A stretch of DNA of 64,000 nucleotides from a plasmid (GCF_055900595.2 NZ_JBVWEU010000002.1); one strand, 5' to 3'; counted from the stretch's first letter, positions 4,199 through 37,328 are shown. The notes: a model not told the origin generated them from the sequence alone. Numbers and translations are program-made.

Positions 4199-4820
4199 GC
4201 TTAGTCAGCCGTTGTCTCCGGGTGTCGCGTGCGCAGTTGCACGTCATTCTCAGACGAACCGATGACTGGAAAGATGGTCGCCGCAGCCGTCACTCCGATA
4301 ATACGGATGTGCTTCTCCGTATACACCATGTTATCGGAGAGCTGCCCACGTATGGTTATCGTCGGGTATGGGCGCTGCTTCGCAGACAGGCCGAACTTGA
4401 TGGTATGCCTGCGATCAATGCCAAACGTGTTTACCGGATCATGCGCCAGAATGCGCTGTTGCTTGAGCGAAAAACCGCTGTACCGCCATCGAAGCGGGCA
4501 CATACTGGCAAAGTGGCCGTGAAAGAAAGCAATCAACGATGGTGCTCTGACGGGTTCGAGTTCCGCTGTGATAACGGAGAAAAACTGCGAGTCACGTTCG
4601 CGCTGGACTGCTGTGACCGTGAGGCACTGTACTGGGCGGTCACTACGGGCGGCTTCGACAGTGAAACAGTACAGGACGTCATGCCAGGAGCGGTGGAACG
4701 CCGCTTCGGCAACGAGCTTCCGGCGTCTCCAGTAGAGTGGCTGACGGATAATGGTTCATGCTACCGGGCTAATGAAACACGGCAGTTTGCCCGGATGTTG
4801 GGGCTTGAACCGAAGAACAC
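4156..4820 (+). pseudogene. insD: IS2 OrfB (InsD), truncated after ...[11 protein letters not shown]
   Basis: The DDE transposase sequence is recognised up to the break. About the last 80 codons are missing. Confidence 0.85.
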
Positions 4821-23317: not shown

Positions 23318-23720
23318 AACGTACCTTTGAGACTGTTTAACAAGTCTTAAAGATACCTCTGAAAGGACCGGTTAACAAGTCTGTATTACTCATACTTTTG
23401 CAAATACATTTAATGCTGGTTTTATTGTTCTGATGCCGCGTGAGCGGCATGGAAGGCGGTATAATGTAGCTACATATGGCACAAGAGTAAAACCGCCGAA
23501 GCCCGGCGTAAGCCGGTACTGATTGATAGATTTCACCTTACCCATCCCCGTCCTGCTAAGCCATGCCCGCTGTCAGCCATGAGAGAGCTTATGTGCGCGG
23601 TCGGAGTGGTCCCGACGAGGGTTTACCCGAAGTCGGGGCGTATCTCCGCGTTAGCGGGCCGTTAGGGCCGCTTACGAGCGTGTACACGATACGTCCAGCC
23701 AGAAGACTGACAGCGATGAC

Positions 23721-23743
23721 AACGTAGTTACAACATTCATAAT
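23721..23743 (-). promoter_or_regulatory. Tus-binding Ter site (reads ..GAATGTTGTAACTAC.. on the minus strand)
   Basis: Matches the Ter core GNNNGTTGTAACTA. It is inverted relative to the second site 120 bp away. Confidence 0.65.
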
Positions 23744-23855
23744 TAAAAGCGACTCTGTTCCGGCCCTTTGGGCCGGGGCGGGGCCGCTTTTCAGTTATGA
23801 GGGAGGGGCTTTGTGGTTTCGGTTCTGCGCTGGACCGGGGTTTTCTTGGCGGTTG

Positions 23856-23878
23856 TATTTGAGTGTTGTAACTAAAAT
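23856..23878 (+). promoter_or_regulatory. Tus-binding Ter site (TATTTGAGTGTTGTAACTAAAAT)
   Basis: Matches the TerB-type consensus AATTAGTATGTTGTAACTAAAGT at the GTTGTAACTAAA core. Confidence 0.65.
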
Positions 23879-23939: not shown

Positions 23940-24200
23940 GCAGTGAATAGGTTTTCTTTTTAAATGAATGTAATTAAGTAGTTTAAAGGAGATATAAACA
24001 GGTGTTTAAAAGATACATTGCACCCTGTAAGACTGGCGGCTGGCGCTTTATGACATGAACGGTTGTAACCTTATGGGGAAGTCCCTTGCAGTTTAATGTG
24101 GATAAGCAAAATTCCCCGTCTGTGAGGCGTGTTTTGTATCGAAAACAGGGGGGGCCGGATGCTCCAGAAGGTGGATGGTGAGGTTGTTTTTTGTATGTGG
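23940..24200. promoter_or_regulatory. IncFII vegetative origin region (oriR), approximate limits
   Basis: Lies 80-340 bp downstream of repA as in R1/R100. It has an AT-rich block at 23950-24020 and a DnaA box at 24097-24105. Confidence 0.5.
24097..24105 (-). promoter_or_regulatory. DnaA box (TTATCCACA on the minus strand)
   Basis: A perfect 9-mer TGTGGATAA on the plus strand. Confidence 0.7.
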
Positions 24201-25982: not shown

Positions 25983-26189
25983 TTACTTCCGTGCTTCGTA
26001 GGCCAGAGTTACCTGCACCACTGTATTTCCCCTGTGAATATTCAGCTCACATAACCGTTCTCTGAATATCAGTGAAAAACACAACACCGTGGCGCACACG
26101 GCGAGCAGCCCGATAAGGGCATATTTCGTCATAAACTTTGACCTCTCTGCAAAGAAGAGGCTACAATCAGTAGTGTTAAGGTACTTCAT
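25983..26189 (-). CDS. srnB: SrnB (Hok-family membrane toxin of a type I TA system); the Hok-like core starts at the Met at 26132
   Basis: MKYLNTTDCSLF.AERSKFMTKYALIGLLAVCATVLCFSLIFRERLCELNIHRGNTVVQVTLAYEARK is recognised as F-plasmid SrnB. The partner antisense RNA (srnC/sok-type) should lie on the plus strand near 26.16-26.26 kb, but I could not delimit it. Confidence 0.85.
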   Translation of the reverse strand: MKYLNTTDCSLFFAERSKFMTKYALIGLLAVCATVLCFSLIFRERLCELNIHRGNTVVQVTLAYEARK

Positions 26190-26341
26190 GCAGACCTCAC
26201 GAGTTAATGGATTAACGAGTGGGGTCTTCGCATTTCTGGTACCTGCGTCTTGCCTGAACCAGAAAGGCTCAGACACCCGCCGCGATAATACCACATTCCT
26301 GTCTGGTTACGACGATCTCCATGCCCCCGGTTTTTATTGCA

Positions 26342-26416
26342 GAAACGCCGGGAGCGGGGAAAACTTGCTTTTTCCCGTTTCCGGGGTTGGACAACTGAGC
26401 AACGCGAAGGCGTCAG
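26342..26416. repeat. Copy 1 of a ~75-bp structured repeat (partner at 37222-37293)
   Basis: GAAACGCCGGGAG-[hairpin]-TTCCGGGGTTGGACAACTGAGCAACGCGAAGGCGTCAG. It overlaps the stop codon of the DUF2726 gene. Confidence 0.7.
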
Positions 26417-26915
26417 CTACGATGTTCCGGTGACTGCTGATCAGCCCCTGTTGTATTCAGCCATTCTCCGGTCATCTGCAGCAGTTTTCTGGCATCGTGG
26501 CTTCTGAGCAACGGAATACCAGCCTGCCTCAGAACCTCTTCCAGAAGAATATCCCGGCGTCTGCGTTCCGGTCGTAAATGGCTGGCATCATCCAGCTCTA
26601 CTGCTGCAACAATACTGAACGAACGCCGCTCAACGATAACCACATCAACATGCCACTGAGACACCATCCTGAATAACTGCCACCACTGGCGTGATCGTGG
26701 CCGGATATTCCCGTTCAGCTGGACGATATCCGCGACCCGTACCTGCGGACACAGATACCACCGCTGGACAGTATTCGCTCTGCATCACCGGTCCGTATAC
26801 CTGCCGTATGCAATTGCATCAGCAAAGGAGAATGCTGATTTACACTTCTGAGGATAATCCGGATAAGTAACGCTGCAATAATCAGAACAATGAGAATAAA
26901 AATAATCAACTTCAT
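26413..26915 (-). pseudogene. DUF2726-family (restriction-endonuclease-like fold) membrane-anchored protein, disrupted by a frameshift near 26760-26775
   Basis: The N-terminal TM ORF (MKLIIFILIVLIIAALLIRIIL...) ends at 26715. A second frame opens at about 26770 and reads ..WYLCPQVRVADIVQLNG..HVDVVIVERRSFSIVAAVELDDASH..RRRDILLEEVLRQAGIPLLR, the DUF2726 core. Confidence 0.6.
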
Positions 26916-26953: not shown

Positions 26954-27163
26954 TTACCTTACATATTTCCATATCTCTTTTGGTATCCTGTCATATAACT
27001 TTCCGGTGATTAATTCCGCTAACCGGTGGTCTGCTGCTGAATTAAATGACTCACGTTCACTGTTTGATAAACTGTCTCTGTTTTTATGAATAATTTTTTC
27101 CAGCGTATTGACTGATGAACATCGCCGTAACTGATACAGCCATTCCTGTTTTGTTTTTGCCAT
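26954..27163 (-). CDS. Hypothetical protein, 69 aa
   Basis: ORF only; no family is recognised. Confidence 0.45.
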   Translation of the reverse strand: MAKTKQEWLYQLRRCSSVNTLEKIIHKNRDSLSNSERESFNSAADHRLAELITGKLYDRIPKEIWKYVR

Positions 27164-27208: not shown

Positions 27209-27670
27209 TTATTTACGGTGCCTCCATATCCAGGGGGGAACCGGATCAGCATCTGACCAGAGCCCACGTTTTTGTTGTCTGGCTTCGTTCTGAAGGACAG
27301 GCAGCACGGGATCTGTGTTGTACTGCTCATATACCCAGGCAGCCCCGGCCCGGACCATAAACTGATTAATATTCATTCCGTCTGGTGCATAAACCTGCCC
27401 GAGAATACGACCATAACGATCTCGCTGAAAATATGTGACGGTAACCGTTTTTCCTGCGACCAGTGATTTCATCATGTCTGTTGACCACCGGCCATAATCC
27501 TGTTTCTTTTCCGGTGCATCAATATTTACCAGCCTGATCCGCACCGCCTTCCGTGAGTCCATGACCTCGATGGTATCACCGTCCAGTACACGAACAACCC
27601 GTCCATGAATATCTGCAGACAATACCGGCCATGAAAAGATAAATAATACCAGTGGAATATATTTCATCAT
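27209..27670 (-). CDS. Secreted staphylococcal-nuclease-like (SNase/thermonuclease) protein
   Basis: Signal peptide MMKYIPLVLFIFSWPVLSA, then VVRVLDGDTIEV, IRLVNIDAPE, RYGRILG and GLW motifs of SNase homologues. A GGAGA SD lies 5 nt before the ATG at 27670. Confidence 0.85.
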   Translation of the reverse strand: MMKYIPLVLFIFSWPVLSADIHGRVVRVLDGDTIEVMDSRKAVRIRLVNIDAPEKKQDYGRWSTDMMKSLVAGKTVTVTYFQRDRYGRILGQVYAPDGMNINQFMVRAGAAWVYEQYNTDPVLPVLQNEARQQKRGLWSDADPVPPWIWRHRK

Positions 27671-27915
27671 GTTATTCTCCATATCAGATAAATGGCACCT
27701 GTATTTCAGGCATCCTGAACATTGCAGCACACAATGAATAACACCTTATTTTGTGAAATAAATCACAAAATATAAAATCACGACTTAATACGGAAAAAAC
27801 TCTGTGCTACTCAGAACTGTCCGGTCATACTGCCCGACCGGATATTAAAAAAAGCAAATCTCATAAACTCCTTTCAGCCTTCTGACTTCTGGTGTAATGA
27901 AGGCTGCTTTTTTCA

Positions 27916-28128
27916 TTACACCCTTCCCCGGCAGCGCCGGTGGCAGTGTTCAGCCTTTTTCCGGGCAAACTGCTGCCAGTCTGTCCGGGGAGCTATGCAG
28001 GCAGCCCGTCGCCATGCTTCTGCCGCTTCCATCCAGCGTCCACTGACCTCCAGAATAACGGCCCGCCCGCCGGCACGCTGGTAACGCCAGACCTGACCGT
28101 TCCGTGAACTGTTTCTGAATCCATTCAT
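27916..28128 (-). CDS. Small Arg/Trp-rich protein, possibly ANR (AraC-negative-regulator)-like; otherwise hypothetical
   Basis: 70-aa ORF. The pattern W.EAAEAWRRAA......W..FARKKAEHC resembles ANR-family proteins as I recall them. Confidence 0.45.
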   Translation of the reverse strand: MNGFRNSSRNGQVWRYQRAGGRAVILEVSGRWMEAAEAWRRAACIAPRTDWQQFARKKAEHCHRRCRGRV

Positions 28129-37076: not shown

Positions 37077-37221
37077 GATGATATTCCGAAGAAAAAAAGT
37101 TAGTCGGACTGATTATTAATGATGAAAAGATTAATAACCGTTAAATTCCGGCTTCGCCGGCAACACTTCACGGTCGCACAAAGAATTTGCACAACCGCTC
37201 AGTGTTTTCATATTTATTTCG

Positions 37222-37293
37222 GAAACGCCGGGGAGAAATAAAATTTATTTTATTTCTTTCCGGGGTTGGACAACGAGCAAAGCGAGGCGTCAG
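37222..37293. repeat. Copy 2 of the ~75-bp structured repeat (partner at 26342-26416)
   Basis: GAAACGCCGGGGAG-[AGAAATAAAA-TTTA-TTTTATTTCT]-TTCCGGGGTTGGACAACGAGCAAAGCGAGGCGTCAG, 36 nt downstream of the traT stop. Confidence 0.7.
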
Positions 37294-37328
37294 TCAGGAG
37301 GCCGGTCAGACCAGCCTCCGGAAGATAA

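What the first reader, a model, noticed from the sequence alone, without database searches (positions are those of the whole stretch)
37222..37293. A ~75-nt structured element conserved downstream of two unrelated minus-strand genes (traT and the DUF2726 gene), with a swapped internal hairpin
The segments 37222-37293 and 26342-26416 share the frame GAAACGCCGGG(G)AG ... TTCCGGGGTTGGACAAC(T)GAGCAA(A/C)GCG(A)AGGCGTCAG. The central hairpins differ in sequence but sit in equivalent positions: AGAAATAAAA/TTTTATTTCT in one and CGGGGAAAA/TTTTTCCCG in the other.

In both copies ACGCC near one end can pair with GGCGT near the other, enclosing the hairpin. Read on the minus strand, the strand of the adjacent genes, the element ends ...GGCGTTTC. 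It starts at or just after the stop codon, overlapping the stop TGA of the DUF2726 ORF and lying 36 nt after traT.

Conserved flanks with a replaced stem look like a selected RNA structure rather than chance. Candidates are a composite terminator, a 3'-UTR stability element or a chaperone (FinO/ProQ-type) binding site. I do not recognise it as a named repeat family.
Basis: seen in the sequence. Interest (0 to 1): 0.5.

Follow-up and report, generated by a model that had tools for sequence, protein, structure and literature searches.

The report
Antisense-strand hairpin module of F-like plasmids
Two copies of an unnamed ~75-base hairpin module sit at gene-block boundaries of this F-type plasmid, and their base pairing is preserved only on the strand opposite the genes, which is the strand F transfers as single-stranded DNA, so it is probably not the terminator it looks like.

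Summary
Segments 37222-37293 and 26342-26416 are the only two copies in the window of a discrete 72-76 nt module.

The module is absent from Rfam. It occurs in about 56% of complete E. coli genomes, almost only on plasmids.

An invariant GGTTGGACAAC and a tail ending GGCGTCAG follow it.

Across 42 distinct variants the stem is kept by compensatory changes. There are 63 G.T wobbles and only one A.C on the + strand. The + strand folds better in 42 of 42 variants.

Selection therefore acts on the strand antisense to traT, traD, srnB and repA, which is F's transferred strand. Neither strand has a T-run after the stem. The ACGCC/GGCGT enclosure shows no covariation. FinO RIP-seq in Salmonella did not report it.

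The module is a conserved island between about 24 left and 24 right flank classes.

Best guess, at about 0.35: a folded single-strand DNA signal on the transferred strand that helps prime complementary-strand synthesis. Rivals are an antisense RNA structure, an mRNA 3' element and a recombination junction. Function is untested.

The parts
37222..37293 (+). Element copy A (72 nt), in the traT-traD spacer. It is 100% identical to plasmid F.
   Evidence: 63.2 bits, E = 2.1e-18
37224..37267 (+). Long hairpin of copy A. AAC (37224-26), G, CCGGGGAGAAATAAAA (37228-43), loop TTTA, TTTTATTTCTTTCCGG (37248-63), G, GTT (37265-67). It has two G.T wobbles on the + strand.
   Evidence: DNA fold -16.5 kcal/mol with z -4.4 on +; -11.9 on -
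37264..37274 (+). Invariant single-stranded core GGTTGGACAAC (GTTG-GA-CAAC near-palindrome).
   Evidence: Invariance is partly forced by the search pattern. Copies found without the pattern show only GGTTGAACAAC and CGTTGGACAAC.
37275..37293 (+). Tail of copy A: variable 11 nt (GAGCAAAGCGA) followed by the conserved end GGCGTCAG.
26342..26416 (+). Element copy B (75 nt), between the DUF2726-fragment ORF and the srnB (hok-like) locus upstream of copB-repA.
   Evidence: (101.6 bits, E = 5.5e-31)
26344..26388 (+). Long hairpin of copy B. AAC, G, CCGGGAGCGGGGAAAA, loop CTTGC, TTTTTCCCGTTTCCGG, G, GTT. It has three G.T wobbles on the + strand.
   Evidence: DNA fold -20.4 on +, z -3.4; -14.7 on -, z -1.75
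26385..26416 (+). Core GGTTGGACAAC, then a 13-nt variable tail with a small local stem (CTGA..CGC/GCG..TCAG), ending in GGCGTCAG. The last 4 nt overlap the TGA stop of the upstream ORF on the minus strand.
37299..37321 (-). Neighbour, not part of the element: the traT-proximal hairpin. Its wobble pair favours the minus (mRNA) strand, the opposite polarity to the element.
   Evidence: for example -19.2 kcal/mol on - against -15.8 on +

Best explanation
SHOWN
- The two segments are copies of a discrete 72-76 nt module confined to F-like plasmid backbones.
- It is a 19-20 bp hairpin. The base (AAC.G.CCGG / CCGG.G.GTT) is conserved in sequence. The upper 12 pairs change freely by compensatory substitution.
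- An invariant GGTTGGACAAC and a tail ending GGCGTCAG follow the hairpin.
- Pairing is maintained on the window's + strand only. That strand is antisense to traT, traD, srnB and copB/repA. It has the polarity of the strand that F nicks and transfers as single-stranded DNA.

INFERRED
- The module works as a folded single strand of that polarity, most likely as DNA.
- I propose it is a protein-recognised hairpin landmark on the incoming transferred strand that stays free of SSB. The same strand is the leading-strand template of the RepFII replicon.
- I propose it helps start complementary-strand synthesis. That would quickly make double-stranded the genes lying 5' of it on that strand: traD-traI at one site, and hok/PLD-copB-repA-oriR at the other.
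- As a by-product, its conserved ~75 bp act as a portable patch of homology at which accessory gene blocks are exchanged.
For: Structure:
- 96.9% of cells are paired over 19 pairs in 24 gap-free variants.
- 3 pairs show double changes, and 0 of 500 shuffles reach the observed covariation score.
- Slid controls give 42-72% paired.

Strand:
- 663 Watson-Crick pairs, 63 G.T and 1 A.C on the + strand across 42 variants.
- The + strand is more stable in 42 of 42 variants with RNA parameters (mean 7.6 kcal/mol) and with DNA parameters (mean 4.1 kcal/mol).

Polarity:
- The F nic sequence 5'-GTGGGGTGT|GGTGC (PMC2504302) lies on the strand opposite the tra genes in NC_002483.
- The transferred strand is the template strand of the leading genes (PMC9849209).

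No promoter is needed. The 5' flank on the + strand falls into about 24 unrelated classes, so a conserved + strand promoter is unlikely. No terminator-like site is found on either strand.

Presumptive positive control for the signature:
- The most +-favoured structured stretch of the window is 23590-23850, downstream of oriR, where I recall R1/R100 having their G4-type primase site.
- pCD1 shows the same asymmetry at the same place.
- Copy B ranks 4th of about 6,400 windows.

Biological need: outside the leading region the F T-strand is converted by repeated priming, at sites and by a mechanism not yet known (preprint 10.64898/2026.01.09.698686).

The sequence-conserved stem base, the conserved G.G mismatch (40 of 42) and the invariant 3' single-stranded core fit recognition by a protein rather than structure alone.
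Against: - No priming or binding test was possible.
- There are only 1-3 copies per plasmid, 11 kb apart here, so the module cannot account for continuous conversion.
- No conserved CTG start triplet and no -35/-10 in the stem, unlike the G4-type and Frpo-type signals.
- The hairpin is small (DNA -15 to -20 kcal/mol). The mining threshold used for ssDNA promoters is below -75 kcal/mol (PMC12672017).
- The element is kept 99-100% identical in plasmids that do not conjugate. These include 616 non-mobilizable PLSDB records and a 92.7-kb plasmid of an O157-lineage strain.
- A few plasmids have lost the hairpin (L029, L147, one slippage deletion).
- Its position right after stop codons, at the ends of gene blocks, is what an mRNA 3' element would show.
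- The extreme 63:1 wobble bias is at least as typical of RNA as of DNA.
- Because all backbone genes are co-oriented, 'antisense RNA strand' and 'T-strand' cannot be separated by comparative data.
Confidence: 0.35

Rival explanations
1. A structure in a + strand (antisense) RNA. Transcripts running antisense to the backbone genes fold into the 20-bp helix. Candidate sources are read-through from the CopA or SrnC promoters, or unmapped antisense promoters near traD. The helix would serve as a processing site (RNase III-like), a stability element or a protein-binding element. That would limit antisense transcription into traT or the accessory genes.
For: - The same strand-specific covariation applies. 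A 63:1 G.U to A.C ratio is classical for RNA helices.
- + strand RNAs are common on this backbone: CopA, AS-pc02, AS-traI and AS-traG, and a predicted SrnC promoter at 26138-26167.
- A weak TTGCAC-N16/18-CATATT/TATTTA promoter-like site would place a start at the first base of copy A (read from the sequence).
Against: - There is no conserved promoter. The upstream flank is of about 24 unrelated classes, and the scan finds none.
- There is no T-run, so no defined 3' end.
- No Rfam family maps here, although several antisense RNAs of IncF plasmids are in Rfam and match this window.
- No complementary trans target exists in the window.
Confidence: 0.25
2. One reading: an element of the minus-strand mRNAs. 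It would be a terminator, insulator or 3'-UTR stabiliser closing traT and the accessory block. It would shield traD and the hok/copB-repA promoters from read-through.
For: - Position. On the gene strand it follows traT (44 loci), DUF2726-like genes (40) and about 25 other genes. It precedes copB (42), PLD (30), traD (23) and srnB (12).
- RNA-seq of an IncFIIK plasmid shows traS/traT at 231/282 RPKM, against 8 and 7 for the next gene and traD (PMC6286996).
- The minus strand can still form a mismatched hairpin (-13 to -30 kcal/mol).
Against: - Every wobble becomes a C.A mismatch on the mRNA strand, and G.U on that strand is essentially absent (1 of 64). This is the opposite of what selection on the mRNA would give.
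- There is no U-tract: the stem is followed by UC(C/U)G and an A-rich stretch.
- In PLD contexts the next gene's SD and start lie 15-38 nt downstream, with no room for a promoter, so transcription must pass through.
- The drop in expression after traT can be explained by the separate traT-proximal hairpin, which does favour the mRNA strand.
- FinO RIP-seq does not list it.
Confidence: 0.15
3. A recombination or mobility module: a folded-strand recombination site (attC-like) or a miniature mobile element that carries gene blocks in and out of two hot spots of the F backbone.
For: - Edges are sharp (RAAACG... ...GTCAG), with about 24 x 24 flank classes in 42 combinations. Identical element sequences lie between at least 5 unrelated flank pairs.
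- In L007 a 2.4-kb block of five ORFs is bracketed by two direct copies, where L004-type plasmids have a single copy.
- Accessory genes are inserted on either side of copy A in other plasmids.
- As with attC, it follows gene ends, the folded strand is the antisense strand, and the base carries AAC/GTT. GTCCAAC also fits RYYYAAC on the gene strand (read from the sequence).
Against: - No integrase or transposase is associated with it.
- There are no target duplications and no terminal inverted repeats beyond ACGCC.
- The R' box (GTTRRRY) is not complementary to R'' beyond 3 bp.
- There is no unpaired central spacer and there are no extrahelical bases.
- Flank-to-hairpin and flank-to-tail linkage is equally partial on both sides, so there is no defined crossover point.
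- RecA recombination at a conserved 75-bp island explains the mosaicism.
Confidence: 0.08
4. A functionless relic of an old ~110-nt duplication, kept by hitch-hiking.
For: - There are only two sites per backbone.
- Weak similarity extends about 30 nt beyond the right edge.
- The hairpin can be lost.
Against: - Compensatory changes and one-sided wobble bias across 42 variants.
- Near-identity of the element between unrelated flanks.
- Presence in 3,034 of 5,426 complete E. coli genomes.
Confidence: 0.05

Closest known systems
Single-strand initiation signals of plasmids (ssi): the G4-type primase site downstream of oriR in R1/R100, phiX174-type primosome assembly sites, and Frpo/ssDNA promoters of the F leading region
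   Same: These are cis-acting hairpins that work only in one strand of single-stranded plasmid DNA. The strand is the same as here: the T-strand, which is also the leading-strand template. The presumed G-site region of this window shows the same +-favoured folding asymmetry.
   Different: - The element is one 20-bp hairpin plus a short tail (72-76 nt). The G4-type site has three hairpins, and the Frpo stem-loop is about 330 nt.
- It has no conserved CTG and no -35/-10.
- It lies outside the leading region.
- No activity has been tested.
Intrinsic terminators and 3' stabilising stem-loops (for example the hairpin directly after traT)
   Same: It lies just after stop codons, at the ends of transcription units. 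It is a stable hairpin. Expression drops after traT.
   Different: There is no U-tract. The pairing is optimised on the antisense strand. The true traT-proximal hairpin has the opposite polarity.
Integron attC sites
   Same: - A gene-end location.
- Structure rather than sequence is conserved in the central stem.
- The folded strand is the one antisense to the genes.
- AAC/GTT triplets lie at the base.
- It is found at junctions of exchangeable gene blocks.
   Different: - No integrase.
- No complementary 7-bp R boxes.
- No unpaired spacer or extrahelical bases.
- An additional invariant 3' tail.
- Only 1-3 copies per replicon.
REP/BIME extragenic palindromes
   Same: These are short extragenic imperfect palindromes at gene ends, with compensatory evolution.
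   Different: The element is plasmid-only (4,725 of 4,754 places), in fixed orientation and low copy number. It has no GTAG head and no RAYT transposase.
FinP/traJ stem-loops and other FinO/ProQ ligands
   Same: A structured RNA-like hairpin on an F-like plasmid.
   Different: It has no terminator-type 3' U tail, and it is not among the RNAs recovered with FinO (PMC8136791).

Membership tests
Rho-independent (intrinsic) terminator | A G+C-rich hairpin immediately followed by a U/T-rich tract on the transcribed strand | tested here: not met
   The scans call no terminator at either copy. After the stem the + strand reads GGACAAC. The - strand reads TC(C/T)G followed by an A-rich stretch.
Rho-independent (intrinsic) terminator | Stem pairing maintained on the mRNA strand | tested here: not met
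   63 G.T against 1 A.C on the antisense strand. The mRNA-strand fold is weaker in 42 of 42 variants.
Any described RNA family (Rfam 15) | A match to a covariance model at or near the gathering score | tested here: not met
   Nothing at the gathering threshold. Only chance-level hits at E <= 10.
FinO/ProQ ligand | A terminator-type hairpin with a 3' U tail, and recovery with the protein in vivo | tested here: not met
   There is no U tail. FinO RIP-seq in Salmonella/pSLT lists FinP, traJ, RepX and repA only (PMC8136791). Binding itself was not testable here.
Frpo-type ssDNA promoter | A long stem-loop (hundreds of nt) that rebuilds -35 and -10 boxes, placed upstream of leading-region genes | tested here: not met
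   The stem is 19-20 bp with no conserved hexamers. The location is the traT-traD spacer and upstream of the RepFII replicon, not the leading region.
G4-type primase site / primosome assembly site (ssi) | A strand-specific hairpin in single-stranded DNA | tested here: met
   The strand is the same as that of the presumed G-site region.
G4-type primase site / primosome assembly site (ssi) | Orientation-specific priming of complementary-strand synthesis (M13 plaque assay; dependence on DnaG or PriA), and a conserved CTG start for the G4 type | not testable with these tools
   CTG is present 3' of the hairpin only in the B-type tail (ACAACTGAG). It is absent in the A-type and in GACGCC-type tails.
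Integron attC site | Complementary R''(RYYYAAC)/R'(GTTRRRY) boxes, L boxes with extrahelical bases, an unpaired central spacer and an associated IntI integrase | tested here: not met
   Only AAC/GTT pair. GTCCAAC fits R'', but the R' position reads GTTTCYN. The stem is continuous apart from one G.G mismatch. No integrase appears among the neighbours.
Miniature transposable element (MITE) | Terminal inverted repeats and target-site duplications | tested here: not met
   The flanks next to both edges are unrelated, with no duplicated bases. The only shared inverted motif is a sub-terminal ACGCC/GGCGT.
REP/BIME | Many chromosomal copies, a GTAG head and both orientations | tested here: not met
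   29 chromosomal places against 4,725 plasmid places, median 1 per genome. Orientation relative to neighbouring genes is constant.

The most novel reading that the evidence does not exclude
The module may be a folded-single-strand recombination site, analogous in logic to attC but with no known recombinase. In this reading, F-like plasmids insert and swap accessory gene blocks through it at two fixed backbone positions, after traT and in front of the RepFII replicon, using the transferred strand during conjugation. The sharp edges, the 24 x 24 flank mosaic, the block bracketed by two copies in L007 and the antisense-strand folding do not exclude this.
Probability: 0.07. Interest if true: 0.85.

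Novelty: new variant of a known kind. Interest (0 to 1): 0.5.

Why it matters
F-like plasmids are the main carriers of resistance and virulence genes in Enterobacteriaceae. How their transferred strand is primed and converted to duplex DNA outside the leading region is still an open question (preprint 10.64898/2026.01.09.698686).

This module is very widespread and unnamed, and its pairing is selected on the transferred strand only. That makes it a concrete candidate cis-signal, testable by a handful of stem mutations.

Whatever its function, it marks two recombination-prone junctions of the F backbone. It is a caution against annotating gene-end hairpins as terminators without checking which strand the wobble pairs favour.

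Tried and rejected
- Loop-tail pseudoknot (loop CUUGC with GCAA, CUGGC with GCCA). Complementarity is no better than with shuffled loop/tail partners (p = 0.145).
- ACGCC/GGCGT enclosing helix. It is invariant on both sides, shows no covariation, and competes with the hairpin base.
- A trans target for the invariant GGTTGGACAAC. Only the two elements themselves match; 9 near-matches were found against 18.7 expected.
- A pseudo-nic site for TraI (GGGGT-TGG against GGGGTGT|GG). I judge it unlikely: by my alignment the element differs at G142', one of the bases that PMC2504302 describes as forming the specificity interaction.
- Further or divergent copies in the window. None were found with the covariance model, filters off.
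- Phage relatives. None.
- Decay test in an old non-conjugative RepFII plasmid. pCD1 has no copy at all, and copies in other non-conjugative plasmids are 99-100% identical, so the test is uninformative.
- A defined crossover point inside the element. Linkage of hairpin and tail to either flank is equally partial.
- Conserved + strand promoter or ssDNA promoter hexamers. None is consistent across flank classes.
- Older literature on traT terminators and the ssi map of F/R100 (Jalajakumari 1987, Ham 1989, Nomura 1991, Frost 1994). These papers are not held in the library. No paper in the library describes the element.

Caveat: 142 of the about 150 loci were collected with the pattern CCGGGGTTGGACAAC-N8-18-GGCGTCAG. 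Invariance of those bases is therefore partly imposed. The stem statistics are not affected.

Full report
**Context**

The window is an F-like (IncF) plasmid segment. The following all read on the minus strand:
- traG, traS, traT, traD, traI, traX and finO;
- SNase-like, Hha-like and DUF2726-fragment genes;
- the Hok/Gef-family srnB locus;
- copB and repA.

CopA and several antisense RNAs known from IncF plasmids lie on the plus strand.

Copy A of the element (37222-37293) lies between the traT stop (37329) and the traD start (37076). It is 100% identical to plasmid F.

Copy B (26342-26416) lies between a truncated DUF2726 ORF and the srnB/copB/repA replicon module. The ORF's TGA stop sits in the element's last four bases.

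Yes.
- The 17-mer core occurs exactly twice, against 0.18 expected.
- A covariance model built from relatives finds these two copies and nothing else in 64 kb. The E-values are 5.5e-31 and 2.1e-18, with filters off.
- Similarity fades about 30 nt beyond the right end, so at most about 110 nt are shared.

**Distribution**

- BLAST against PLSDB finds the traT-side region in 4,371 plasmids. Almost all are Escherichia, Klebsiella, Salmonella and Shigella F-type plasmids.
- Among complete E. coli genomes, 3,034 of 5,426 carry it. There are 4,725 places on plasmids and 29 on chromosomes, with a median of one per genome.
- Phage records have none.
Together with the other loci fetched, these gave 42 distinct full-length variants.

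**Anatomy**

Read on the plus strand the module is, in order:
- R-AAAC-G-CCGG, then 12 variable bases;
- a loop of 4-5 bases;
- 12 variable bases, then CCGG-G-GTT;
- GGACAAC;
- 11-13 variable bases;
- GGCGTCAG.

The hairpin is therefore 19-20 bp.

Results on 24 gap-free variants:
- 96.9% of cells pair, against 42-72% when the partner is slid.
- Three pairs show changes on both sides, for example A-U to G-C in 9 sequences at one pair.
- No shuffle out of 500 reaches the covariation score.

One stem position runs through G.T, G-C, A-T and C-G in different lineages.

The G.G mismatch near the base is kept in 40 of 42 variants. Where it changes, it becomes a pair: C-G in L133, and G-C in L103 and L031. 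The enclosure uses the same bases, never varies and shows no covariation.

A loop-tail pseudoknot was tested and rejected.

**Which strand?**

This is the main new result.
- Across the 42 variants the stems hold 663 Watson-Crick pairs, 63 G.T pairs and one A.C, counted on the plus strand. On the minus (mRNA) strand the 63 would be C.A mismatches.
- The plus strand folds better in 42 of 42 variants. The mean difference is 7.6 kcal/mol with RNA parameters and 4.1 kcal/mol with DNA parameters.
- A 63-fold bias is, in my judgement, far beyond any plausible mutational strand asymmetry. Deamination of the non-template strand would also push the other way.
- The small hairpin directly after traT (37299-37321) has the opposite polarity, with its wobble pair favouring the mRNA strand. 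The spacer therefore holds one hairpin for each strand.

**What is the plus strand?**

- In plasmid F the sequence cleaved by TraI, 5'-GTGGGGTGT|GGTGC (PMC2504302), lies on the strand opposite the tra genes.
- The transferred strand is the template strand of the leading genes (PMC9849209).
- The window's plus strand is therefore the T-strand. oriT itself is not within the window, so this step is an inference from F.
- By established knowledge of R1-type unidirectional replication, the same strand is also the leading-strand template.

A scan of the whole window for strand-asymmetric folding gave two results.
- It puts 23590-23850 first. This stretch is downstream of the DnaA box and oriR and next to a Ter-like site. 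It is the position where, from memory, R1/R100 carry their G4-type primase site.
- It puts copy B fourth of about 6,400 windows.

pCD1, another RepFII replicon, shows the same asymmetry downstream of repA but has no copy of the element. If that stretch is the primase site, a known single-strand DNA signal on this strand gives the same signature. The signature alone cannot separate DNA from RNA.

**Context across plasmids**

The element is a conserved island.
- BLAST matches to copy B break exactly at its two edges (query 43-151, 1-117, 41-117, 44-117).
- In about 150 loci the flanks fall into about 24 left and 24 right classes in 42 combinations. Identical element sequences sit between five or more unrelated flank pairs.

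On the gene strand it follows:
- traT (44 loci);
- DUF2726-like genes (40);
- about 25 other genes.

It precedes:
- copB (42 loci);
- a PLD-family gene (30);
- a 281-aa ORF upstream of traD (24);
- traD (23);
- srnB (12).

Further context:
- In PLD contexts the next gene's Shine-Dalgarno sequence and start lie only 15-38 nt downstream.
- In L007 a five-ORF block is bracketed by two direct but diverged copies, where L004-type plasmids have one.
- Other plasmids carry an extra gene on one or the other side of copy A.
- A few plasmids have lost the hairpin but kept the 3' half.
- Linkage of the hairpin and the tail to either flank is partial and similar on both sides, so no fixed crossover point is visible.

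**What it is not**

- It is not an intrinsic terminator on either strand, because there is no T-run.
- It matches no Rfam family.
- It is not a reported FinO ligand (PMC8136791).
- It is not a MITE, because it has no terminal repeats or target duplications.
- It is not an attC site in the strict sense.

RNA-seq of an IncFIIK plasmid shows a roughly 35-fold drop after traT (PMC6286996). The mRNA-strand hairpin next to traT can account for that drop.

**Most likely mechanism**

- Shown: a discrete module whose hairpin is selected on the antisense/T strand, with a sequence-conserved base and 3' core that suggest protein recognition.
- Inferred (about 0.35): it acts as folded single-stranded DNA on the transferred strand. 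It would be a landmark that helps prime complementary-strand synthesis toward traD-traI and toward hok/PLD-copB-repA-oriR.

Two points fit this reading.
- No promoter is conserved upstream on the plus strand.
- A recent preprint concludes that the T-strand is repeatedly primed outside the leading region, at unknown sites (10.64898/2026.01.09.698686).

Several points count against it.
- Copy number is low.
- The hairpin is small.
- It lacks the features of known ssi classes.
- It is retained in non-conjugative plasmids.

Rivals:
- a plus-strand RNA structure (0.25);
- a recombination or cassette junction (0.08);
- a functionless relic (0.05).

**Novelty**

I found no description of the element in Rfam or in the searchable literature. 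Older papers on the traT terminator region and on the ssi map of F and R100 could not be read, so part of copy A may have been drawn as a 'stem-loop' before.

To my knowledge the following are new:
- recognition of the two sites as one family;
- the covariation;
- the antisense/T-strand polarity;
- the role as a mosaic junction.

Noticed in passing
window 23590-23850 (+): The most strongly +-favoured and most stable folded stretch of the window (single-strand DNA fold -59.8 kcal/mol, z -4.3). It lies downstream of oriR, where from memory R1/R100 have their G4-type primase site. pCD1 shows the same asymmetry about 520 nt downstream of repA (L155 5696-5770).
   Followed up: partly
window 23861-23877 and 24098-24106: GTGTTGTAACTAAAA resembles the Tus-binding Ter consensus. 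TGTGGATAA is a DnaA box. Together they mark the oriR/terminus region of the RepFII replicon.
   Followed up: no
window 26120-26278 (-) and 26138-26167 (+): The Rfam 'sok' model matches the same strand as the Hok/Gef-family srnB ORF, although Sok is by definition antisense to hok. The promoter-like site for the antisense RNA (TTGACC-18-TACAAT) is on the + strand.
   Followed up: no
window 37299-37321 (-): The hairpin directly after traT is more stable on the mRNA strand through a U.G pair, but it also lacks a U-tract. How traT transcripts end is therefore not obvious from the sequence.
   Followed up: partly
window 26413-26667 (-): The DUF2726 ORF is a fragment: 84 aa covering profile positions 54-110 of 126. 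A full-length 202-aa homologue lies in L007 (4113-4721).
   Followed up: partly
window 37131-37211 (-) and 37100-37192 (-): A 26-aa ORF (MKTLSGCANSLCDREVLPAKPEFNGY) starts 11 nt after copy A, in the traD leader. A 30-aa ORF shares its first 15 residues with the mechanically called start of the 281-aa ORF that other plasmids carry between the element and traD.
   Followed up: no
L029 (Salmonella pHL21A) 1480-1530; L147; one metagenome locus: The long hairpin is deleted while GGACAAC...GGCGTCAG is kept. One case is a clean deletion between TTTC direct repeats, which suggests replication slippage across the hairpin.
   Followed up: partly
L007 2973-3047 and 5494-5568; L103 1821-1895 and about 4253-4327: Two direct but diverged copies of the element bracket a block of accessory ORFs about 2.4 kb long, between a DsbA-like gene and the PLD-copB-repA module.
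   Followed up: partly
window 26954-27163, 27209-27730, 27834-28019: Hha-family and SNase-family genes, and the Rfam antisense RNA AS-pc02 (178 bits), lie between finO and copy B. AS-traI and AS-traG also match within the tra genes.
   Followed up: no
L008, L012, L013, L018, L019, L022-L025 (genome contigs): F-plasmid-like contigs carrying the element are filed under Streptomyces, Clostridium, Lachnospiraceae, Acinetobacter, Microbacterium and Nanosynbacter assemblies. This is most likely contamination or mis-binning.
   Followed up: no
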